DNA of 32,000 nt from the NCBI GenBank assembly GCA_030595715.1, contig JAUVCN010000009.1, positions 12,035 to 44,034 on the forward strand, written 5' to 3'. The position numbers were made by a program, and so were the translations under genes. The notes beneath the pieces are model-generated. The model saw only the letters and a program-made list of their open reading frames with translations, made no database searches and was not told the origin of the DNA. How positions within the stretch are numbered: the first letter of the stretch is position 1; each line of letters opens with the position of its first letter. Shown one piece after another: positions 6,221 to 16,558 of the stretch. Source of the DNA: Thermoplasmatales archaeon. Its GTDB lineage: Archaea > Thermoplasmatota > Penumbrarchaeia > Penumbrarchaeales > Penumbrarchaeaceae.

Positions 6221-6350
6221 TTCTTCCGAAAGAACGTCAGAAGGATCCGATCTCATTGAAGGTTCCAAAGGGCGCTATGCCTGAATATCCGATGAAGTGT
6301 TCGAATTCCATACTAATCTCGTTATATATCTTGTATCAGTTTCCGTTGTA

Positions 6351-9300
6351 ATGAGATATGGAAGAGGCTCCATTTTCATTTCGATCATGGTCTTGGGATT
6401 GATGATACAGATAATTCCGGATTCCAACGGAATGGAATGGGATGAGACCTACCAGAGATCCGATGCCAAACCATGGAAGATATGGTACCGTGATCCTGAG
6501 AATATACAATCCATGGAAATGGACCAAGAGAACAGAACTCTTTACATCGGTTGTGAGTATGGTTTGGTAATCAAGGACCTGGACACTGAAGAATTCAACA
6601 TTATTGACAGGTTCGATGGTGTGAATTCACTGGCAGATCAGCAGGTGATAGATATCGAACTGGACCTTGCCAACGAGCGAGTGTTCTTTGCCTTGGAGAA
6701 AGGCCCGGAGGTCTATGAACTGGATATAATATCGGAAACTATCTCAAAGATCCACAAGTTCGATGACGGTTCGAACCTTTTTAAATGGGGCGATTCCAGG
6801 GCTCTTGAATACGATCCGATAAGTGATGTTCTCTTTTTCGCCAGAGATTCCGGGCTTCTTGTCTTCAACATGCGAGAGAATCATTTCAGGTTCCTAGATT
6901 TCCTTCACTTCGGTGTTGAACTGTATAGCTATACCGTATCCGATAATGAGGTCGAGGTGGTGATGGCCGGTTACAATGGTTTGTGGAAGAATGGACCTGG
7001 TGATATGGATGATAATTCTTTCCAAATAAAGGATCTGGAACTTTGCCTTTCAAGGGATAGATTGTTCATTGCTACCAACAACGGGCTCTTTTCTTATGAT
7101 ATGACAAAAGGGATCATCGAACAGGATATTTCCACCCAGAAACTGGGAAGATTCCTGAAAGATATTCTTTTCATTCCTGATCTGGATCTTCTGTTCCTCG
7201 CGGGAGAAAAGGTCTGGTCATTCAATCCTAACACAAACAGTACGGGGGTAATCTATGAGGATTATCTGGATCGGGATCAGAAACATAAGGTTTTCCTCAA
7301 GCTTTTATGGAATGTTAGAGACCAATCCCTGATCATCAGCTCTGGTCTCGGTCCAGCTTTGATCTTCCTCGATTGGGATACCGGTGCTGTCACCTTTTCA
7401 AATACCGATATCATGATAGTTGAGAATGTCGAATTCCACCATTTGGGTTGGGACCTCTCAGCGGGGAATTATACTGAGATGGTGCTTGATGGATCTACCT
7501 TTGACCTGCTTTTATCAAGGGGTGACATCATTGCAGGCGGATACTGGTGGAATGTAACATATGATGTGGATGTCAGCGTCCCGGTAGAGAGATACTGGAA
7601 CAGGTCGAATTTCCTTGAGATCAATGGTTATGACCTGATCATCGATATCGATGTTAAGGGGAAGGGATCAAAGGAAACCCATGGACGTAGGGACTTTTGT
7701 GGCTCACTTTTTCAATTTGATCTGGATGGATGCAGTATCCGTTCAAGAACGATACTTGACTATTTTACCCACGATGACGAGATTTACAGGATCCACATGT
7801 CCGAGCCGAGAAATCACATTGCCTCCAAGGGTAATCGATTGTTCGCCAAATTAGATTCCAAAGGCCTCTGGGACCTCAACATCGAAGAGGGTACATTGAG
7901 CCAGGAGTATTTTCCCTATTTCAATGAGACATATGAGAAATATCGTTACAGGAATATCCGGAATATCTTTACAGTCGGTGATGATATTCATGTATCTCTT
8001 GCTGGAAACGGTACGATCCTATATGACATAGAAAATGGCACCCGTAAATTCGATGTTGACCTGCAAATAGGATACAGTAGCTTCCAGATCGGTCCAGTTT
8101 CCGGTCATATTTTCACAGGTGGAAACCGCACCGGTAATATCATCGAATACGACCCCATGACCGGAGAGTCAATTGACCATTACTTCAATATCAGCGATCC
8201 GAACACCGGACAACCCGGATACATTGAACATCTGGTATTCAATACAGATGAGACGATTGCAGTTATTGGTGGAATTCGAAATATTACTACAATGAATATG
8301 AAATACGGGGTCCTCGGAAACAAGAACTACCTTGAAGACATCGAAACATGGGACCCAAGATATCAATTCGACGAGTTTATTACGGAAATAATCTATCACG
8401 AAGGAACGGATACTTTCTACGGTTTTACGAACCATGGTGAGATCATAGATATACTGAGGTCAAAGAGACTTGGTTATCTCACAAACAGCACCGTAAGCGA
8501 TTATTGCCTTGGTCCGAATGGAAGCAAGATATTGGCGGTTACGGGAAAGACGATGATGGGTAGTATCGGATTCGATGCCGATGAACCGAATGGATTGATA
8601 TCCTACGATCCTTCAACAGGGGAGATCGAGGATTATAACTTTGATATTGGACTTCCCTGGGTTCACTGCCTGGGTTTAACCGTGAACGAAGAATCCGGAT
8701 GGATATGTATTATCGGCAAAACATACATCGCAGTGATAAGGGAGGAAGATCTGGTCCAGGTCGATAAAAAGAACGGGTCGGACGTGACGGAGGATGTTCC
8801 AGTAAATCATCCGGAGATCGAGGAGAATTCAGGGGCATTCACCGATGAACTGATCTTCGGAGCTGCCGGCCTGTGTATCATATCTTTATTGGGTGCGGCA
8901 ATCATTTTCTTCGAGCCTTTAAAGTTCAAAATTCTTTCAGCATTTGCATACCCTCTATTCACCAAGGTCAGAGGAAAAGATCTGCTGGGTAACAAGAAAA
9001 GAAGGAAGATAATTGGAGTGATAAGGGAGCACCCATACATCCATTTCAATGGTATCAGAAAGGAATTATCCCTTGGCCCCGGTGAGGCCGCATATCACCT
9101 CAGGGTCCTTGAAAGAGAAGAGATGATAGGATCTGAACCAAGAGGTGTAAGAAAGGTGTTCTATTTGATCGGAGGGAAGAAAAAAGGAAATGAATTCCTC
9201 CAAAGTAGGCTTCAGAGGATGATAGTGGATCTTATCTCTATGGAGCCAGGGATCTCTCAGAGGGAGCTGTCACGGAGATTGGATACTAACCCCTCCACCA

Positions 9301-9389
9301 TAAATTACAATGTCAGGTCCCTTGCAAGAAGAGATATCATTCGTATCGAAAGAAGCAGTTCCAGGTCCATGTGCTACAGAACGAACTAA
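6351..9389 (+). CDS. membrane-spanning protein: N-terminal TM, large extracytoplasmic propeller-like domain, second TM, two C-terminal winged-helix domains
   Basis: N-terminal hydrophobic segment SIFISIMVLGLMIQII. Recurrent motifs resemble two-component-regulator propeller repeats: GCEYGLVIKD, ARDSGLLVFN, ATNNGLFSYD, AGEKVWSFN. Second TM LIFGAAGLCIISLLGAAIIFF (about 8848-8912). Two wHTH-like segments follow: IREHPYIHFNGIRKELSLGPGEAAYHLRVLEREEMI and LISMEPGISQRELSRRLDTNPSTINYNVRSLARRDII. The start is uncertain (ATG 6351 or GTG 6297). Confidence 0.7.
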   Translation: MRYGRGSIFISIMVLGLMIQIIPDSNGMEWDETYQRSDAKPWKIWYRDPENIQSMEMDQENRTLYIGCEYGLVIKDLDTEEFNIIDRFDGVNSLADQQVIDIELDLANERVFFALEKGPEVYELDIISETISKIHKFDDGSNLFKWGDSRALEYDPISDVLFFARDSGLLVFNMRENHFRFLDFLHFGVELYSYTVSDNEVEVVMAGYNGLWKNGPGDMDDNSFQIKDLELCLSRDRLFIATNNGLFSYDMTKGIIEQDISTQKLGRFLKDILFIPDLDLLFLAGEKVWSFNPNTNSTGVIYEDYLDRDQKHKVFLKLLWNVRDQSLIISSGLGPALIFLDWDTGAVTFSNTDIMIVENVEFHHLGWDLSAGNYTEMVLDGSTFDLLLSRGDIIAGGYWWNVTYDVDVSVPVERYWNRSNFLEINGYDLIIDIDVKGKGSKETHGRRDFCGSLFQFDLDGCSIRSRTILDYFTHDDEIYRIHMSEPRNHIASKGNRLFAKLDSKGLWDLNIEEGTLSQEYFPYFNETYEKYRYRNIRNIFTVGDDIHVSLAGNGTILYDIENGTRKFDVDLQIGYSSFQIGPVSGHIFTGGNRTGNIIEYDPMTGESIDHYFNISDPNTGQPGYIEHLVFNTDETIAVIGGIRNITTMNMKYGVLGNKNYLEDIETWDPRYQFDEFITEIIYHEGTDTFYGFTNHGEIIDILRSKRLGYLTNSTVSDYCLGPNGSKILAVTGKTMMGSIGFDADEPNGLISYDPSTGEIEDYNFDIGLPWVHCLGLTVNEESGWICIIGKTYIAVIREEDLVQVDKKNGSDVTEDVPVNHPEIEENSGAFTDELIFGAAGLCIISLLGAAIIFFEPLKFKILSAFAYPLFTKVRGKDLLGNKKRRKIIGVIREHPYIHFNGIRKELSLGPGEAAYHLRVLEREEMIGSEPRGVRKVFYLIGGKKKGNEFLQSRLQRMIVDLISMEPGISQRELSRRLDTNPSTINYNVRSLARRDIIRIERSSSRSMCYRTN

Positions 9390-12289: not shown

Positions 12290-13047
12290 CCTTGGAGCTG
12301 AAGGACCTCCACTTTTCCTATAACGGGATAAAAGCCCTGGCGGGAGTGAACCTGAGCATGAGGGGGGGAGATCTGGTGGGTCTGGTCGGACCCAACGGAT
12401 CGGGTAAATCGACCCTTCTGAAGAACCTTGATCGGATCATCGTTCCGAAGAAAGGCAAGGTCCTGCTTGACGGGAAGGATCTTTCTTCCATGAAAAGGAG
12501 GGAGATCGCAAGAAGGATCGGATACGTCCCCCAGTCTTCGGTGAACCTCTTTTCCAAAACGGTCTTCGATACCGTTCTCATGGGCAGGATCCCCCACGGG
12601 TCCTGGGCACCGACAAGAAGTGACCTGAGAAAGGTATCGGATATTATAGTGGAATTCGGGCTTCAGGACCTATCAGGCAGGGGTCTCAACTCGCTTTCGG
12701 GTGGTGAAAAACAGAAGGTGATCATCGCCAGGGCCGTTGCACAGGAACCGGAGATCGTTCTTCTGGATGAGCCTACTTCCTCTCTTGATCTGGCAAATCA
12801 GATCGATGTGATGGAACTAATTAAAACACAGACAGAGAAGGGGATACTTGCAGTTATGGCCGTCCATGATCTGAACCTGGCACTCAGATACTGTGACAGG
12901 TTCGTGCTCCTCAAGGCTGGGAAAGTTGTTGCCAATGGTGATTCCGATGCTCTTTCGAGGACGGTTCTTGAAGATGTTTACGAGATAAAGGCGAAGGTCC
13001 TTGGAAATGGAAAGGAAAAGGTATTCGTTCCACTATCGAGGAGATGA
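12283..13047 (+). CDS. ABC importer ATP-binding protein (FepC/BtuD-like)
   Basis: Walker A GPNGSGKST, signature LSGGEKQKV, Walker B VLLDEPTSSLD. The TTG start overlaps the permease stop. An in-frame TTG at 12292 is an alternative. Confidence 0.85.
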   Translation: MVTLELKDLHFSYNGIKALAGVNLSMRGGDLVGLVGPNGSGKSTLLKNLDRIIVPKKGKVLLDGKDLSSMKRREIARRIGYVPQSSVNLFSKTVFDTVLMGRIPHGSWAPTRSDLRKVSDIIVEFGLQDLSGRGLNSLSGGEKQKVIIARAVAQEPEIVLLDEPTSSLDLANQIDVMELIKTQTEKGILAVMAVHDLNLALRYCDRFVLLKAGKVVANGDSDALSRTVLEDVYEIKAKVLGNGKEKVFVPLSRR

Positions 13048-13079
13048 GATCGTTTAATAACAGGTCTTGTCCAGGATTA

Positions 13080-13415
13080 TTATAACGTCAATAGATCCCG
13101 TAACAGATATTCGATCGCTTCCAGATCATTGTTGGATAATATTCCTAACTTATGGGTGAAACGATCGATATCAAGTGATACCAACTGAAAAACCAGAGCC
13201 ACACTCTGTCTATCCAGCCCATTCTTCCTATCGGGATAAAGTGTGAATGTATGGGGGAAATCAGCCCTTTTCAATGTCCCGGTTATCGGAACGACCTGAG
13301 CAATTCCATTTGAAATACCCATGACAACACCAGGTCTTGTCCCTGCCTGCTCGTGTCCTCTGGTTTCTCCCAGTGCTACTAGCCAAACTTCCCCTCTTCT
13401 CATTTTTCTCAGCAC
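13080..13415 (-). CDS. mazF: PemK/MazF-family toxin (endoribonuclease fold)
   Basis: RGEVWLVALGETRGHEQAGTRPGVVM matches the MazF/PemK N-terminal signature (RGD-W-V-L-P--G-EQ-G-RP). Length of about 107-111 aa is typical. The start is either GTG 13415 or ATG 13403. Confidence 0.8.
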   Translation of the reverse strand: MLRKMRRGEVWLVALGETRGHEQAGTRPGVVMGISNGIAQVVPITGTLKRADFPHTFTLYPDRKNGLDRQSVALVFQLVSLDIDRFTHKLGILSNNDLEAIEYLLRDLLTL

Positions 13416-13418
13416 CGA

Positions 13419-13937
13419 TCAATAAAAAGAAGCGTTTTGCCAAGCTTCAAATTCTACCTTCATTTCTTTCATGTTATCGTCAGATACCTTGCCAAAGAAC
13501 TGTTTGGCTTTAGAGGCTCCAAGGGCTAGCATTGCGTCAGAATAGAAGGGTTTCATTTTTTTCAATTCTTTAAAGGAATCAAAATGATCCTGGTGCAGGA
13601 TCTGGTTTTGAAAACCATATGTTGCACCAATTTCCAGCAGGGATGATGATAGACCAAAGATGTTTTTCAATTCGTTCACGGATCCCTTTTCCTGTTCACT
13701 TAGTGAAACTTCGGTTTTGTAACATGATATATCCTTCCCATTTTCATAAAGGTCCTGGGTCAATACGGGAGAATATGGGCCCCGGATGTATAGGCCGGAA
13801 GGATATCCCAGTTCAACTCCCTTCAATTGAAGTAAACATACGATCTTTTGAGCGATCAATCTATCTTCAAAGTTCTCAAGATGGAAATGGAATTCAAGTT
13901 CCTTGAAACATGCAATTACTTTTCCGATATCAGTCAT
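13419..13937 (-). CDS. uncharacterised protein in the antitoxin position, possibly YwgA / DUF4065 (SocA Panacea)-like
   Basis: 172 aa. RLIAQKIVCLLQLKG...LYIRGPYSPVLTQDLY resembles the KLQKL...YGPYS motif pair I recall for YwgA/Panacea-type domains. The ATG at 13937 follows AGGGGGGAAACAG and overlaps the upstream gene by 8 nt. Its stop is 3 nt from the mazF GTG. Confidence 0.55.
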   Translation of the reverse strand: MTDIGKVIACFKELEFHFHLENFEDRLIAQKIVCLLQLKGVELGYPSGLYIRGPYSPVLTQDLYENGKDISCYKTEVSLSEQEKGSVNELKNIFGLSSSLLEIGATYGFQNQILHQDHFDSFKELKKMKPFYSDAMLALGASKAKQFFGKVSDDNMKEMKVEFEAWQNASFY

Positions 13938-14262
13938 CTGTTTCCCCCCTGTAGTTCAGAAAATCCTTCAACCACTTTATTGATCTATTCCATTCAATGA
14001 AACCTTCATTGGTCAGATGATATGATTCAAGTTCTTTACCCTCGAGGCGTACCTTTTCGGAGTTGATCATTCCCATCTTTTCGAGGGCTTTCAGGTTCGA
14101 AAACAGTAATCCATCCGGAATTCCCAAACCGGCATTCAGTTCTCTGAAAGTTGCTCCGTCCGGTCCTAGGTAGAAAAGACTGTGTATGATCTTGATCCTG
14201 GTCAGGGAAAATATCTTTTGATTCAAGTACAAGGATTCGTCGATCAGTTCCCGATATATCAT
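13930..14262 (-). CDS. winged-helix DNA-binding protein (ArsR/HTH_34-like)
   Basis: RIKIIHSLFYLGPDGATFRELNAGLGIPDGLLFSNLKALEKMGMINSEKVRLEGKELESYHLTNEG fits a wHTH with a wing. The ATG at 14262 is preceded by GGGAGATGG. The ORF-track TTG start is at 14268. Confidence 0.65.
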   Translation of the reverse strand: MIYRELIDESLYLNQKIFSLTRIKIIHSLFYLGPDGATFRELNAGLGIPDGLLFSNLKALEKMGMINSEKVRLEGKELESYHLTNEGFIEWNRSIKWLKDFLNYRGETDD

Positions 14263-14846
14263 CAACAACCATCTCCCATTCTCTGTGAAGTATTACATTG
14301 GTCATGCACTATTAATATTCTTTGGAATTTACTTAAATATTTAGGTAAATTAATTTCCGTTACAATTTATCTGAGGGTAGTTCTTGTAATGTTGAATATC
14401 CTGATGATGACCACCCTTGCTCTGCTCACATCAGGTCATATGTGTGGGGAAGAGCCCTTTTGAGTAGGTACATGATTCATATGATCCAGGGCTGGGTATA
14501 AGGGGGAAATGAAGAAGAAAAAGAAGAGAATGTGACATTTTCCTATTATGGGGTCAGATATAATATGGTAATCAACATTGAATTTTCAAGTATTAATGAA
14601 GATATAATGGGTATATATTTTAGTGTGTGGCCTAAGGTATTTTAAATATGTTATTTCAAAATAACTAATTTGAATTACCTAAGAACATAATATAGGTCCT
14701 TGTTTAGTAGCAACAGGACCATCGCCTATCATTACGGGGTGAGAAGAGATAGAAGATCAGGATCGTGCAACGGATCCATTATTCTTATCATAGGACCTTC
14801 AATATAATTTGGAAAAGGACCAAGCCTGAAGACAATGTTTATTAAC

Positions 14847-14876
14847 AGTTAACCACTCGCCAGCCAAAGGTTAACA
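14847..14876. promoter_or_regulatory. BirA-type operator (inverted GTTAACC half-sites, 14-nt spacer) in front of bioY
   Basis: AGTTAACC (14847-14854), 14-nt spacer, GGTTAACA (14869-14876). It ends 15 nt before the bioY ATG. This matches the general TGTWAACC-N14-16-GGTTWACA form of BirA sites. A BirA with an N-terminal HTH is encoded next door. Confidence 0.65.
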
Positions 14877-14890
14877 ATGGTGGTCCTGAT

Positions 14891-15502
14891 ATGAACGTCA
14901 ACGGATACATGAACGGATATACTGATTCCCTGATCAGATTACACAGCTGGAGGAACGAACTGAACATCATCAACAAGATAATGCTTGCACTGGGGTTCGC
15001 CCTTCTGACAGGCCTCCTGGCCCAGGTAAGGTTCGGCCTTCCTTTCTCACCTGTCCCCCTCACAGGTCAGACATTCGCGGTCCTTCTCGCTGGTGTCCTT
15101 CTTGGAAGATGGGGTGGTGTGAGCATGGGGATGTATGTTGGAATAGGTGCTGCGGGTGTTCCGTGGTTCACCGGATGGCAGGGAGGTCTTGCAACCTTCA
15201 CAGGAGCGACCGGTGGATATCTGGTCGGTTTCGTTCTCGCTGCATTGTTCGTCGGTTTCATGACAGAGAGATATGTCAGGTCCAGGAAGATGCATGCTCT
15301 CCTGCCAGTAATGCTCTTTGCCAATTTCTTCCTCATCTATATCCCGGGCCTGCTCGTCCTCCACTTCTGGTGGGGGGAGTTCGTAGGACCCATGACGATG
15401 ATGAAGCTCCTTGCGGTCGGTCTCATTCCTTTCCTGGCAGGCGACCTTCTGAAGATAGCAGCAGCTGCCGGGATCGCAAGAGCGATCCTCCCTGCAAGAT
15501 GA
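14891..15502 (+). CDS. bioY: biotin transporter S-component BioY
   Basis: Polytopic membrane protein with PLTGQTFAVLLAGVLLG and TGATGGYLVGF blocks characteristic of BioY. Confidence 0.85.
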   Translation: MNVNGYMNGYTDSLIRLHSWRNELNIINKIMLALGFALLTGLLAQVRFGLPFSPVPLTGQTFAVLLAGVLLGRWGGVSMGMYVGIGAAGVPWFTGWQGGLATFTGATGGYLVGFVLAALFVGFMTERYVRSRKMHALLPVMLFANFFLIYIPGLLVLHFWWGEFVGPMTMMKLLAVGLIPFLAGDLLKIAAAAGIARAILPAR

Positions 15503-15601: not shown

Positions 15602-16558
15602 ATGAAACAGAGGACCCTTGAACTCCTCAAACCGAACGAGTTCGTTTCGGGGGAGGCCATAGCTTCCGAGTTGGACATATCCAGGACCGCGGTATGGAAA
15701 CATATCAGATCACTGAAGCAGCTTGGATATGATATCGAGACGGTCAAGAACAGAGGTTACCGTCTGATATCGTCACCCGATCTTCTCCTTGCAGAAGAGG
15801 TCGGGCGCGACCTGGACACAAAGATCATCGGAAATGAGATCGAATACCACTCCAGGATAGGTTCCACCAACACAAGGGGAAAAGAACTTGCCAGAAAGAA
15901 GGTCCAAGAAGGGATGGTCATCGTTGCCGAGGAGCAGACCGAAGGAAGGGGACGAAAACAGAGGCAATGGTCCTCTCCGGAAGGAGGATTGTGGTTCTCT
16001 GTCATTCTCTATCCGGACCTGCCGCCGGACAAGGGGATGCTTGTGACGATGATGACCTCGATATCGGTGGCGAAGGGTATCGAGGAGACAACGGGGATCA
16101 CCCCTCTGATCAAATGGCCGAACGACCTTCTGCTTGATGGAAAGAAGATCTGCGGCATACTGACCGAGCTCGATGCCGAGCTGGACAGGATAGAAAGCCT
16201 GGTGGTCGGGATCGGGATCAATGTCAACAACAGGATCGATATCGAGTTGAAGGACATTGCAATGAACCTCGAAACGAACCTTGGAAAGCCGGTATCCCGG
16301 GTGGATCTGTTGAGGTCGATACTCCGGTCCATGGACTCATATTATGAGTTGCTGAAAAGAGGAGACCACGATAGGATCAGGGATAAATGGACGGAGCTAT
16401 CTCGAATGGTCGGGAGGAAGATATCGGTCGTTGGAGAGAGGGATCGATCCGAGGGGACGGTTCTGAGAATTGATGATAGTGGCTGCATCATCCTGGAAAC
16501 GAAAACAGGACAGAAACGTATCGTAAGCGGTGACATCCGTTATCTGGATCGAACATGA
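15602..16558 (+). CDS. birA: bifunctional biotin--[acetyl-CoA-carboxylase] ligase / biotin operon repressor BirA
   Basis: N-terminal HTH (SGEAIASELDISRTAVWKHIRSLKQLGYDI). Catalytic motif GRGRKQRQWSSPEGGLWFS. KWPNDLLLDGKKICGIL. The TATA-like box spacing suggests a leaderless mRNA. Confidence 0.9.
   Translation: MKQRTLELLKPNEFVSGEAIASELDISRTAVWKHIRSLKQLGYDIETVKNRGYRLISSPDLLLAEEVGRDLDTKIIGNEIEYHSRIGSTNTRGKELARKKVQEGMVIVAEEQTEGRGRKQRQWSSPEGGLWFSVILYPDLPPDKGMLVTMMTSISVAKGIEETTGITPLIKWPNDLLLDGKKICGILTELDAELDRIESLVVGIGINVNNRIDIELKDIAMNLETNLGKPVSRVDLLRSILRSMDSYYELLKRGDHDRIRDKWTELSRMVGRKISVVGERDRSEGTVLRIDDSGCIILETKTGQKRIVSGDIRYLDRT

What the first reader, a model, noticed from the sequence alone, without database searches (positions are those of the whole stretch)
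13080..14268. Non-canonical three-gene MazF module: winged-helix protein, 172-aa YwgA/Panacea-like protein, MazF toxin
What the sequence shows:
- Three co-directional minus-strand genes are packed together, with an 8-nt overlap (ATGACTGA at 13930-13937) and a 3-nt gap (13416-13418).
- The last gene is a clear PemK/MazF-fold toxin.
- The short AbrB/RHH-type MazE expected directly upstream is absent.
- The antitoxin position holds a 172-aa protein carrying RLIAQKIV...YIRGPYSPVLTQDLY. I recall this motif pair from the YwgA / DUF4065 (SocA Panacea) domain, which has been reported as a promiscuous antitoxin domain paired with many unrelated toxins.
- A separate wHTH protein leads the operon, which would split DNA binding from neutralisation.

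The inference is a tripartite toxin-antitoxin or defence-type module of a kind I do not know to be characterised in archaea. The locus also looks compositionally foreign (see the next finding).
Basis: partly seen in the sequence, partly recalled or inferred. Interest (0 to 1): 0.7.

Follow-up and report, generated by a model that had tools for sequence, protein, structure and literature searches.

The report
Archaeal three-gene MazF toxin-antitoxin module
A low-GC island in this archaeal genome carries a conserved, mobile three-gene cassette (DNA-binding regulator, DarG/Panacea-like putative antitoxin, MazF RNA-cutting toxin), an uncharacterised archaeal variant of a toxin-antitoxin type already validated in bacteria.

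Summary
Three minus-strand genes are packed with an 8-nt overlap and a 3-nt gap: a wHTH (PF13601), a 172-aa protein, and MazF (PF02452, catalytic Arg/Thr equivalents kept). No MazE-type gene is present.

The 172-aa protein matches no Pfam, NCBIfam, PADLOC or PHROG model, including PF13274 (Panacea). Its confident AF2 model (pLDDT 91) has one credible PDB match, the DarT-binding C-terminal domain of the antitoxin DarG (7yk3_B). A profile of its wider family hits that chain (E 1.6e-4) through the QK...Y / GPYS motifs. A model of a close homologue of a validated PanA hits the same chain first. So it is a Panacea/DarG-CTD-superfamily ("YwgA-like") protein, not a PF13274 member as now defined.

In 80 archaeal loci, the wHTH gene is upstream in 79 of 79 informative cases. 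MazF is intact downstream in 61 and decayed or missing in most of the rest. Flanks fall into 53 different contexts, and the three proteins co-diverge (r 0.92-0.95). A palindrome over a TATA-like element lies upstream of the wHTH gene in the window and in 24 of 74 loci.

Best reading: a tripartite type II TA in which DNA binding and neutralisation are split between two genes. It is a new variant of a known kind. No function was tested.

The parts
13080..13415 (-). MazF/PemK-family endoribonuclease toxin gene. 111 aa from GTG 13415, or 107 aa from ATG 13403.
   Evidence: PF02452 E 1e-18. PHROG 'MazF-like growth inhibitor' E 7e-18. Best solved relatives are S. aureus MazF (E 1e-9) and B. subtilis EndoA/YdcE (E 5e-7). 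The alignment places R27 in GTRPGVV opposite the Arg of GVRPVVI, and T45 in PITG opposite the Thr of AITG. That these columns are the B. subtilis EndoA catalytic residues Arg25 and Thr48 rests on my own knowledge. The public gene call is 107 aa.
13419..13937 (-). 172-aa YwgA-like / DarG-C-terminal-domain-like (Panacea-superfamily) protein, the putative MazF-neutralising antitoxin.
   Evidence: No Pfam, NCBIfam, PADLOC or PHROG hit. AF2 model pLDDT 91.3, pTM 0.83. Foldseek top hits 7yk3_B/D, the DarG C-terminal domain: prob 1.00, TMq 0.59-0.60. Family profile A2 hits 7yk3_B at E 1.6e-4. Invariant Q30, K31 and R52-G-P-Y-S56. Nearly invariant E162, W166 and A169 in a low-pLDDT C-terminal tail.
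13930..14262 (-). 110-aa winged-helix (HTH_34) protein, first gene of the operon and putative autorepressor. The ORF can be extended to TTG 14268.
   Evidence: PF13601 E 3.3e-13, with weaker PadR, ArsR, HxlR and MarR matches. A homologue lies immediately upstream of the 172-aa homologue in 79 of 79 informative loci. One contig encodes a wHTH + 172-aa-like fusion.
14326..14351 (.). 26-nt palindrome AATTTACTTAAATATTTAGGTAAATT, centred on a TATA-like TAAATATTTA. Its promoter-proximal end (14326) is 63 nt upstream of the wHTH ATG. Candidate operator overlapping the promoter.
   Evidence: Inverted repeat I3, 93% complementary. The pattern TTACYW-N2-14-WRGTAA occurs once in the 32-kb window, at this site. 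It is found in the -200..+20 region of the wHTH gene in 24 of 74 related loci, against 2 matches in 503 kb elsewhere in those loci.
12900..14880 (.). Low-GC segment holding the trio and its 620-bp AT-rich upstream spacer. It sits between an iron/corrinoid-type ABC transporter operon and bioY-birA.
   Evidence: GC 0.36-0.44 against 0.50-0.55 in the flanks. Flank identities: ABC ATPase and BirA, BioY PF02632. No flanking direct repeats were found.

Best explanation
This is a self-contained, horizontally mobile, three-component type II toxin-antitoxin operon of archaea.

- MazF, the last gene, is a sequence-specific endoribonuclease toxin.
- The 172-aa protein shares the helical bundle plus beta-hairpin fold of the DarG C-terminal domain and the Panacea antitoxin domain. 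It binds MazF directly and keeps it inactive. Binding is either through the globular domain or, as I think likely, through its conserved, acidic, Trp-containing C-terminal tail (about residues 150-172), which is predicted to be disordered on its own.
- The wHTH protein, the first gene, represses the operon by binding the palindrome that overlaps the TATA-like element upstream of its own gene.

Together the first two gene products do the job of a normal two-domain antitoxin (DNA binding plus neutralisation), as in omega-epsilon-zeta or paaR-paaA-parE.

Shown here: gene order and coupling, family and fold assignments, co-conservation, co-divergence, mobility, the conserved palindrome, and preferential decay of the toxin gene.

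Inferred: toxicity, direct binding, which part of the 172-aa protein neutralises, and autoregulation.
For: 1. Tight coupling: an 8-nt overlap and a 3-nt gap.
2. MazF is a bona fide PF02452 member, with residues aligned to the catalytic Arg and Thr of EndoA retained.
3. The 172-aa model (pLDDT 91) has only one credible PDB match, the toxin-binding C-terminal domain of the antitoxin DarG (prob 1.00, TM 0.6).
4. The family profile hits the same chain at E 1.6e-4, through the QK..Y and GPYS motifs and the LE..A(S/T) helix.
5. A model of P0211, 89% identical to the validated PanA of phage phi52237 (PF13274 E 8e-18), also has 7yk3_B as its top hit. It shows the same order of secondary-structure elements.
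6. The published Panacea description is alpha1-alpha7 plus beta1-beta2 with a GPV motif in beta2 (PMC8832971, PMC10440598). DUF4065 is reported as homologous to the DarG CTD (PMC13621843).
7. PanA antitoxins paired with MazF-fold RNase toxins have been validated by neutralisation in bacteria (PMC8832971).
8. In 80 genome loci, the wHTH gene is upstream in 79 of 79 informative cases. MazF is full-length downstream in 61 of 80. Ten loci have a truncated or frame-shifted MazF remnant, one has a MazF ORF overlapping the end of the 172-aa gene, one has a MazF-like gene on the opposite strand, and seven have none. The two upstream genes stay intact throughout, which is the decay pattern expected when the last gene is the toxin.
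9. There are 53 different flanking contexts, and the window segment is low in GC. Both point to a mobile unit.
10. Pairwise-identity matrices of the three proteins correlate at r 0.92-0.95 over 57 modules.
11. One contig fuses the wHTH and the 172-aa-like domain and is followed by PemK.
12. An operator-like palindrome is conserved upstream of the wHTH gene.
Against: - No experiment on any member was found in the held literature.
- PF13274 does not match the 172-aa protein or any of 130 relatives.
- hhalign against one PanA clade gives only P 0.003-0.007, with probabilities of 6-11%, and nothing with the narrow profile A1.
- The Foldseek E-value against 7yk3 is 0.12. The link therefore rests on Foldseek's probability score, the TM-score and the separate profile hit.
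- Ernits et al. (PMC10440598) showed that in several PanAs the globular Panacea domain is not the neutralising element, so the neutralising part here is open.
- The palindrome is detected in only 24 of 74 loci, mostly the Methanoregula clade. In the window alone it is not significant (1 match against 0.15 expected; 14 of 100 shuffles reach it).
- The fusion protein comes from a single MAG contig and could be a frame-shift artefact.
- The co-divergence correlation is inflated by shared phylogeny.
Confidence: 0.68

Rival explanations
1. The wHTH protein is the real MazF-neutralising antitoxin as well as the repressor. The 172-aa Panacea-like protein is then an accessory: a sensor or trigger-receiving module, or a stabiliser of the complex.
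For: - Ernits et al. 2023 (PMC10440598) showed that Panacea can be an accessory domain. In those cases neutralisation is done by other elements (Phd-C, PAD1, ZBD), and the authors propose a sensory role.
- The wHTH gene is as strictly conserved as the 172-aa gene.
- It co-diverges with MazF just as well (r 0.93).
Against: - The wHTH protein is only 110 aa, and HTH_34 covers residues 24-103. That leaves no obvious toxin-binding extension.
- The closest solved relative of the 172-aa protein is itself a toxin-binding domain.
- The 172-aa gene is the one immediately upstream of MazF and translationally coupled to it.
- It carries a conserved, disordered C-terminal tail typical of neutralising elements.
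Confidence: 0.15
2. A SocA-like (type VI) mechanism. The 172-aa protein does not inhibit MazF by binding. It acts as an adaptor that delivers MazF to a cellular protease (Lon or the proteasome/PAN in archaea).
For: SocA, the founding member of the DUF4065/Panacea family, is a ClpXP adaptor for the toxin SocB, as summarised in PMC8832971. The 172-aa protein belongs to the same fold superfamily.
Against: - All PanA-PanT pairs tested by pull-down formed stable complexes, consistent with direct type II neutralisation (PMC8832971).
- Archaea of this group lack ClpXP (established knowledge; not tested here).
- The closest solved relative, the DarG CTD, inhibits by direct binding (Deep et al. 2023, as cited in PMC13621843).
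Confidence: 0.05
3. This is not a toxin-antitoxin system. On this reading the wHTH and 172-aa proteins form a regulatory pair, and the MazF-like RNase has a non-toxic housekeeping or regulatory role. Alternatively the adjacency is merely inherited.
For: - No toxicity data exist.
- wHTH + 172-aa pairs persist without MazF in several loci.
- More distant YwgA-like relatives sit next to HD-domain proteins rather than classical toxins.
Against: - The gene order is conserved across at least four archaeal lineages in 53 different contexts.
- The MazF catalytic residues are retained.
- Only the MazF gene is selectively pseudogenised.
- The locus is low in GC.
- PanA-MazF-fold pairs have been validated experimentally in bacteria (PMC8832971).
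Confidence: 0.07

Closest known systems
PanA-PanT (Panacea/DUF4065 antitoxin) systems with EndoA/PemK/MazF-fold RNase toxins, e.g. Pseudomonas moraviensis and Bifidobacterium ruminantium PanAT (Kurata et al. 2022, PMC8832971)
   Same: - The antitoxin gene lies directly upstream of a MazF-fold toxin.
- The antitoxin is a helical bundle with a small beta-hairpin. It carries a Q-K motif on the long second helix and a G-P-x motif in the hairpin.
- It has the same unique top PDB match, the DarG CTD.
- The modules are mobile and found in varied contexts.
   Different: - The 172-aa family is not detected by PF13274.
- It carries GPYS rather than GPV, plus a conserved C-terminal Trp tail.
- A separate wHTH gene is essentially always present. 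Kurata et al. found third genes only in small fractions of genomes, and HTH domains, where present, were fused to the N-terminus of PanA.
- The hosts are archaea. The five Methanomicrobiales PanA hits in their Dataset S1 are listed as 'no_PanT'.
DarG C-terminal domain of the DarTG system (PDB 7YK3)
   Same: It is the closest solved structure and the only significant sequence-profile hit in the PDB. It is a stand-alone-folding helical domain whose known role is to bind and inhibit its cognate toxin.
   Different: There is no macrodomain and no DarT here. The partner toxin is an RNase, not a DNA ADP-ribosyltransferase. Identity is about 14%.
Three-component TA systems with a separate regulator: omega-epsilon-zeta and paaR2-paaA2-parE2
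   Same: The gene order is regulator, antitoxin, toxin. DNA binding is separated from neutralisation, and the antitoxin has no DNA-binding domain.
   Different: All three protein families are unrelated to those systems: wHTH rather than the RHH omega or the PaaR repressor, a Panacea-like antitoxin rather than epsilon or PaaA, and MazF rather than zeta or ParE. This comparison rests on established knowledge plus the mention in PMC8832971. It was not tested here.
Canonical MazEF / PemIK / Kis-Kid
   Same: The toxin family (PF02452) is the same, with residues aligned to the catalytic Arg and Thr retained. The toxin is the last gene of the operon.
   Different: There is no AbrB/SpoVT- or RHH-type MazE. 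Its place is taken by two unrelated genes.
YwgA-type proteins next to HD-domain proteins (the Bacillus ywgA neighbourhood type)
   Same: They belong to the same wider sequence family. JGI labels members 'YwgA'. The family profile reaches 2343 cluster representatives.
   Different: Those distant members are followed by a 522-aa HD-domain protein, with no MazF and no wHTH. The link to B. subtilis YwgA itself rests on source names and my own knowledge. No alignment was made here.

Membership tests
PemK/MazF toxin (PF02452) | Match to the family HMM above the curated threshold | tested here: met
   68 bits against a cut-off of 23.1, E 1e-18, covering profile positions 1-108 of 109.
PemK/MazF toxin (PF02452) | Catalytic Arg and Thr equivalents (B. 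subtilis EndoA Arg25 and Thr48, from my own knowledge) | tested here: met
   In the phmmer alignment to S. aureus MazF (printed; EndoA is also matched in the hit table), GTRPGVV aligns with GVRPVVI and PITG with AITG.
PemK/MazF toxin (PF02452) | Endoribonuclease activity and growth inhibition | not testable with these tools
   Needs expression and cleavage assays.
Canonical MazEF module | Short AbrB/SpoVT- or RHH-type MazE gene directly upstream of mazF | tested here: not met
   The upstream gene is a 172-aa protein with no such domain. The next gene is an HTH_34 wHTH. There is no other ORF in frame or space for one.
SocA_Panacea / DUF4065 (PF13274) | Match to the PF13274 HMM | tested here: not met
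   No hit for the window protein at E<=1, for the 41 members of alignment A1 at E<=10, or for 89 distant relatives at E<=0.01. The same library gives the phage phi52237 PanA E 8.4e-18. UniRef nevertheless names two close homologues 'DUF4065' and 'SocA-like Panacea domain-containing'.
SocA_Panacea / DUF4065 (PF13274) | Profile-profile homology to bona fide PanA proteins | tested here: inconclusive
   hhalign of A2 against the PanA sequence gives P 0.0028 (prob 10.8%). A2 against a 37-sequence PanA clade gives P 0.0066 (prob 5.8%). Both align the QK..Y and GP motifs. A1 against A3 gives P 0.14. Only one narrow PanA clade was available.
SocA_Panacea / DUF4065 (PF13274) | Compact fold of alpha1-alpha7 with a beta1-beta2 hairpin carrying a conserved G-P-x motif next to the central helix (PMC8832971, PMC10440598) | tested here: met
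   The AF2 model (pLDDT 91) has H4-14, H23-38 (carrying Q30 and K31), E48-50, E53-55 (invariant RGPYS52-56), six further confident helices (H57-65, H67-71, H81-94, H98-113, H118-128, H134-148) and a low-confidence C-terminal helix H153-171. The PanA-homologue model has the same element order. Both have 7yk3_B as top PDB match. The two models could not be superposed directly.
SocA_Panacea / DUF4065 (PF13274) | [quoted passage not shown] | tested here: met
   The gap in the window is 3 nt. MazF starts within a few nt of the stop in 61 of 80 loci.
SocA_Panacea / DUF4065 (PF13274) | Neutralises the cognate toxin and forms a complex with it | not testable with these tools
   Needs rescue and pull-down assays or multimer prediction.
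DarG C-terminal toxin-binding domain | Sequence and structure similarity to the DarG CTD (7YK3) | tested here: met
   hmmsearch with A2 gives E 1.6e-4. Foldseek gives prob 1.00, TMq 0.59-0.60, 186-188 aligned columns.
DarG C-terminal toxin-binding domain | Fused N-terminal macrodomain and an adjacent DarT toxin | tested here: not met
   The 172-aa protein is single-domain and its neighbour is MazF. It is not a DarTG system.
HTH_34 winged-helix regulators (PF13601) | Match to the family HMM above threshold | tested here: met
   50 bits against a cut-off of 27, E 3.3e-13, residues 24-103.
Three-component TA with a separate regulator (omega-epsilon-zeta or paaR-paaA-parE type) | A dedicated DNA-binding regulator gene leading the operon, and an antitoxin with no DNA-binding domain | tested here: met
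   The gene order is wHTH, 172-aa, MazF. There is no HTH in the 172-aa protein by Pfam or in the model. The wHTH gene is present in 79 of 79 informative loci.
Three-component TA with a separate regulator (omega-epsilon-zeta or paaR-paaA-parE type) | The regulator binds the operon promoter and autoregulates | not testable with these tools
   There is only indirect support: a palindrome over a TATA-like element, conserved in 24 of 74 loci against 2 hits in 503 kb of background.

The most novel reading that the evidence does not exclude
The wHTH / YwgA-like / MazF trio is a widespread archaeal abortive-infection or stress-sensing system, found in methanogens, DPANN and Thermoplasmata. On this reading the globular Panacea/DarG-CTD-like domain is a sensor for a viral or cellular trigger. 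MazF is held inactive by the conserved C-terminal acidic Trp-containing tail (E162, W166, A169), acting as a MazE-tail mimic. Trigger binding to the globular domain releases the tail and unleashes MazF. This would be the first characterised Panacea-type sensor-antitoxin in archaea and a natural three-way split of regulator, sensor-neutraliser and toxin.
Probability: 0.2. Interest if true: 0.7.

Novelty: new variant of a known kind. Interest (0 to 1): 0.5.

Why it matters
Panacea-type antitoxins are the best example of one domain neutralising many unrelated toxins, but all validated cases are bacterial or from phages. How the domain works (neutraliser or sensor) is still debated.

This locus defines an archaeal family that current Panacea models miss. 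The wider family has 2343 cluster representatives, and 45 representatives match the close-family profile at E<=1e-30. It is linked by sequence to the only solved relative, the DarG CTD.

Regulation and neutralisation are separated here into two genes in essentially every informative copy. That makes the roles of each part easy to dissect experimentally.

It also shows that annotation pipelines and TA or defence finders (PADLOC gave no hit) overlook a common MazF module in methanogens and DPANN archaea.

It does not overturn anything. PanA with a MazF-fold toxin, and three-gene TA layouts, are both known.

Tried and rejected
- Pfam, NCBIfam, PADLOC and PHROGs scans of the 172-aa protein gave nothing. 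Pfam scans of 41 close and 89 distant relatives gave only scattered chance hits and no PF13274.
- phmmer and the narrow profile A1 against PDB sequences gave only chance hits. Only the broader profile A2 reached DarG.
- Foldseek against BFVD viral structures found nothing credible.
- hhalign against the phi52237 PanA and its clade was weak. A profile of that PanA clade does not hit DarG by sequence.
- I tried to recover full-length DarG to read its precomputed Pfam domains. The 65-aa fragment found only three short fragments. PF13274 does not hit the DarG fragments. This used the last large protein search without result.
- I checked Dataset S1 of Kurata et al. for these proteins. Five Methanomicrobiales PanA hits are listed, all 'no_PanT', but the accessions could not be matched to this family.
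- Flanking direct repeats or att-like sites around the low-GC segment: none convincing.
- Virus carriage: only one partial relative among 2.9 million IMG/VR contigs. The module is therefore not typically viral.
- Rfam and tRNA scans found nothing in or near the locus.
- The idea that the 89-aa (14036-14305) or 60-aa (13261-13443) ORFs are genes was rejected. They are out-of-frame overlaps of conserved genes.
Full report
**1. What is in the sequence**

On the minus strand of the window lie three tightly packed ORFs.
- A wHTH gene at 13930-14268. It is 110 aa from ATG 14262, which is the start a public gene caller used.
- A 172-aa gene at 13419-13937.
- A MazF gene at 13080-13415, starting at GTG. 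An in-frame ATG at 13403 gives 107 aa.

The wHTH stop and the 172-aa start share ATGACTGA (13937-13930). The 172-aa stop is followed by three bases and then the GTG of mazF.

The segment from about 12.9 to 14.9 kb has GC 0.36-0.44, against 0.50-0.55 on both sides. On one side is an iron/corrinoid-type ABC transporter operon that ends convergently at 13047. On the other is a divergent bioY-birA pair. No flanking direct repeats were found.

**2. The three proteins**

MazF matches PF02452 at 68 bits (cut-off 23.1) and a PHROG 'MazF-like growth inhibitor'.
- Its best solved relatives are S. aureus MazF (E 1e-9) and B. subtilis EndoA/YdcE (E 5e-7).
- The alignment puts R27 (GTRPGVV) and T45 (PITG) opposite the Arg and Thr of the GVRPVVI and AITG segments.
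- From my own knowledge these are the catalytic Arg25 and Thr48 of EndoA. The enzyme therefore looks active.

The first gene product is an HTH_34 winged helix (PF13601, E 3.3e-13), with weaker PadR, ArsR, HxlR and MarR similarity.

The 172-aa protein has no hit in Pfam, NCBIfam, PADLOC or PHROGs.

**3. What the 172-aa protein is**

It has 41 homologues at E<=0.01 in the 5.8-billion-protein collection: an identical sequence plus 40 others at 34-65% identity. JGI names several of them 'uncharacterized protein YwgA'. UniRef names the Methanofollis liminatans and Methanoculleus bourgensis members 'Antitoxin SocA-like Panacea domain-containing protein' and 'DUF4065 domain-containing protein'.

A profile of these (A1) finds 2343 cluster representatives at E<=1e-3 among 1.84 billion. 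Yet none of the 41 close members or 89 distant members matches PF13274 in the 2025 Pfam copy.

An AlphaFold2 model built on A1 is confident (pLDDT 91.3, pTM 0.83). It has the following elements.
- A short first helix.
- A long second helix carrying invariant Q30 and K31.
- A beta-hairpin carrying invariant R52-G-P-Y-S56.
- Six further confident helices.
- A low-confidence C-terminal helix (pLDDT 52-67) that nevertheless carries nearly invariant E162, W166 and A169.

Foldseek against the PDB gives one credible match: chains B and D of 7YK3 (prob 1.00, TMq 0.59-0.60). Everything else has TM <= 0.33.

Independently, the profile of the 89 distant relatives (A2) hits 7yk3_B at E 1.6e-4. It aligns LEIQKLMYF...FTPGRYGPYS with the family's QK..Y...GPYS, and VELLAS with LE..A(S/T). 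That chain is deposited as 'DNA ADP-ribosyl glycohydrolase', i.e. DarG. It is the helical C-terminal domain that binds and inhibits DarT (Deep et al. 2023, as summarised in PMC13621843).

To test the Panacea link directly, I took the experimentally validated PanA of Burkholderia prophage phi52237. It is named YP_863932.1 in PMC8832971, was retrieved, and matches PF13274 at E 8.4e-18.
- hhalign of A2 against this protein, and against a 37-sequence alignment of its clade (A3), aligns the same QK..Y and GP motifs. It does so only at P 0.0028 and 0.0066, with low probabilities. A1 against A3 gives nothing.
- The PanA clade profile does not reach DarG by sequence.
- An AF2 model of P0211, which is 89% identical to that PanA (pLDDT 95.5), has the same order of elements.
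- Its sole notable PDB hit is again 7yk3_B (prob 0.75, TMq 0.46).

The published description of Panacea fits: alpha1-alpha7 plus beta1-beta2, with a conserved GPV motif in beta2 next to the central helix (PMC8832971, PMC10440598). A 2026 paper states that DUF4065 proteins are homologous to the DarG C-terminal domain (PMC13621843).

My conclusion is that the protein belongs to the DarG-CTD/Panacea fold superfamily and is closer in sequence to the DarG CTD than to the PanA clade tested. It is not a member of PF13274 as currently modelled.

**4. Is the trio a unit?**

A pattern scan of one genome per species (GTDB) returned 80 loci. They come from Methanoregula/Methanoregulaceae, Methanoculleus, Methanocalculus, other Methanomicrobiales, Micrarchaeota, Iainarchaeum and Thermoplasmata.

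The wHTH homologue lies immediately upstream on the same strand in every locus where that DNA exists, 79 of 79. L079 starts inside the gene, and L052 and L055 were recovered by tblastn.

The state of MazF downstream across the 80 loci is as follows.

| MazF downstream | Loci | Which |
|---|---|---|
| Full-length (>=100 aa), starting within a few nt of the stop | 61 | |
| Truncated or frame-shifted remnant | 10 | L009, L017, L018, L034, L035, L041, L050, L052, L065, L072 |
| ORF overlapping the end of the 172-aa gene | 1 | L078 |
| MazF-like gene on the opposite strand | 1 | L043 |
| None | 7 | L002, L003, L045, L059, L063, L073, L075 |

The two upstream genes remain intact in all these cases. 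That asymmetric decay is what is expected if the last gene is the toxic one.

Further evidence for a unit:
- Flanking genes fall into 53 unrelated context groups, so the trio moves as a cassette.
- Pairwise-identity matrices of the three proteins over 57 complete modules correlate at r 0.92-0.95. There is no sign of partner swapping inside this clade.
- A more distant relative (P0101, E 3e-25) is again flanked by HTH_34 and PemK.
- One MAG contig encodes a 290-aa fusion of HTH_34 and the 172-aa-like domain, followed by a PemK protein. This is suggestive, but it is a single observation.
- Still more distant YwgA-like members are instead followed by a 522-aa HD-domain protein.

**5. A candidate operator**

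The promoter-proximal end (14326) of a 26-nt palindrome lies 63 nt upstream of the wHTH ATG. The palindrome is AATTTACTTAAATATTTAGGTAAATT (14326-14351), centred on a TATA-like TAAATATTTA.

The degenerate pattern TTACYW-N2-14-WRGTAA occurs only there in the window. That alone is not significant: 0.15 matches are expected, and 14 of 100 shuffles reach 1.

Its conservation in place is significant. It is found in the -200..+20 region of the wHTH gene in 24 of 74 loci, against 2 matches in the remaining 503 kb of those loci. It is often followed by a third direct AAAGTAAAT half-site.

Loci of the Methanoculleus clade lack this motif and may use another one.

**6. Mechanism**

The best-supported model is a three-component type II TA.
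- wHTH is the autorepressor. It acts at a promoter-overlapping palindrome.
- The 172-aa protein is the direct MazF-binding antitoxin.
- MazF is the endoribonuclease toxin.

Functionally, the first two genes together correspond to a normal two-domain antitoxin, as in omega-epsilon-zeta and paaR-paaA-parE.

Which surface of the 172-aa protein neutralises is open. Ernits et al. showed that in some PanAs appended linear elements, not the globular domain, do the neutralising, and proposed a sensory role for Panacea (PMC10440598). Here the only appended element is the conserved, acidic, Trp-containing, low-pLDDT C-terminal tail. I consider it the most likely MazF-binding element, by analogy with the MazE C-terminal tail. 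That analogy rests on my own knowledge and was not tested.

Rivals:
- The wHTH protein is the neutraliser and the Panacea-like protein is a sensor or accessory.
- The 172-aa protein is a SocA-like protease adaptor.
- The locus is not a TA at all.

**7. Novelty**

PanA antitoxins paired with MazF-fold RNase toxins are validated in bacteria (PMC8832971), and three-gene TA layouts are known. The following points are new.
- The antitoxin family lies outside PF13274 and links by sequence to the DarG CTD.
- A separate wHTH gene is essentially always present. Kurata et al. found third genes only sporadically, and HTH domains, where present, were fused.
- The distribution is exclusively archaeal, apart from one 'Bacillota' MAG contig (L063) whose proteins and neighbouring genes closely match those of Methanoculleus loci and which is probably mis-binned.

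The five Methanomicrobiales PanA hits in Kurata's Dataset S1 are all listed without a toxin. I found no paper describing this trio.

I rate it a new variant of a known kind, of moderate interest. Everything functional remains to be tested.

Noticed in passing
window 14632-14683 (within the 620-bp AT-rich spacer 14269-14890): A 25-nt-arm inverted repeat (80% complementary, 2 nt between the arms) lies about 200 nt upstream of bioY (14891-15502, PF02632). bioY is followed by birA (15602-16558), whose product has an N-terminal repressor domain. The repeat could be a BirA operator for bioY rather than part of the TA module.
   Followed up: no
L045:4670-5085, L059 and L063 (Methanoculleus-type loci): In these loci MazF is absent. 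A hicA-hicB pair (PF07927 E 4e-22; PF15919 E 8e-11) sits about 140 nt downstream of the intact wHTH + 172-aa-like pair. A second TA has replaced, or inserted at, the toxin position.
   Followed up: partly
L043:4532-4909 (-): A 125-aa PemK-family gene (PF02452 E 2e-14, 31% identical to the window MazF) lies on the opposite strand, convergent with the wHTH + 172-aa-like pair. It is an inverted or replaced toxin.
   Followed up: partly
L052:4525-5551: Only a 27-aa MazF N-terminal remnant is left. It is followed by a 335-aa protein with HATPase_c_4 (RecG-C-like) and Fic-like C-terminal domains, apparently inserted into the toxin gene.
   Followed up: partly
L087:1057-3137, L088, L089: A distant YwgA-like relative (P0150, 168 aa) is directly followed (5-nt gap) by a 522-aa HD + HD_assoc_2 protein in three independent metagenome contigs. 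This is a different conserved pairing of the same antitoxin-like family, and its function is unknown.
   Followed up: partly
L090:235-1868: A single MAG contig encodes a 290-aa fusion of HTH_34 with the 172-aa-like domain. It overlaps by 4 nt a 254-aa protein whose N-terminal 103 residues are PemK. That protein has an unexplained extension of about 150 aa. Both could be real fusions or assembly or frame-shift artefacts.
   Followed up: partly
L063 (JAEWSG010000199.1, labelled 'Bacillota bacterium' MAG): The module proteins and neighbouring genes of this contig closely match those of Methanoculleus-type loci (L045, L059): the compared ORFs are identical or differ at a few residues. This is probably a binning error, so the family appears restricted to archaea.
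   Followed up: no
L029:7403-7936 (-): The same contig holds a second, solitary copy of the 172-aa-like gene. No wHTH or MazF homologue was detected next to it.
   Followed up: no
window 6297-9389 (+): A 1030-aa ORF whose only family match is a weak ArsR/SmtB-type HTH near its C-terminus (residues 896-955). It is otherwise unassigned.
   Followed up: no
Dataset S1 of PMC8832971: Five Methanomicrobiales PF13274 hits (Methanoculleus chikugoensis, Methanofollis liminatans, Methanoplanus limicola, Methanomicrobium mobile and one more) are all listed as 'no_PanT'. I could not establish whether any is a member of the present family.
   Followed up: partly
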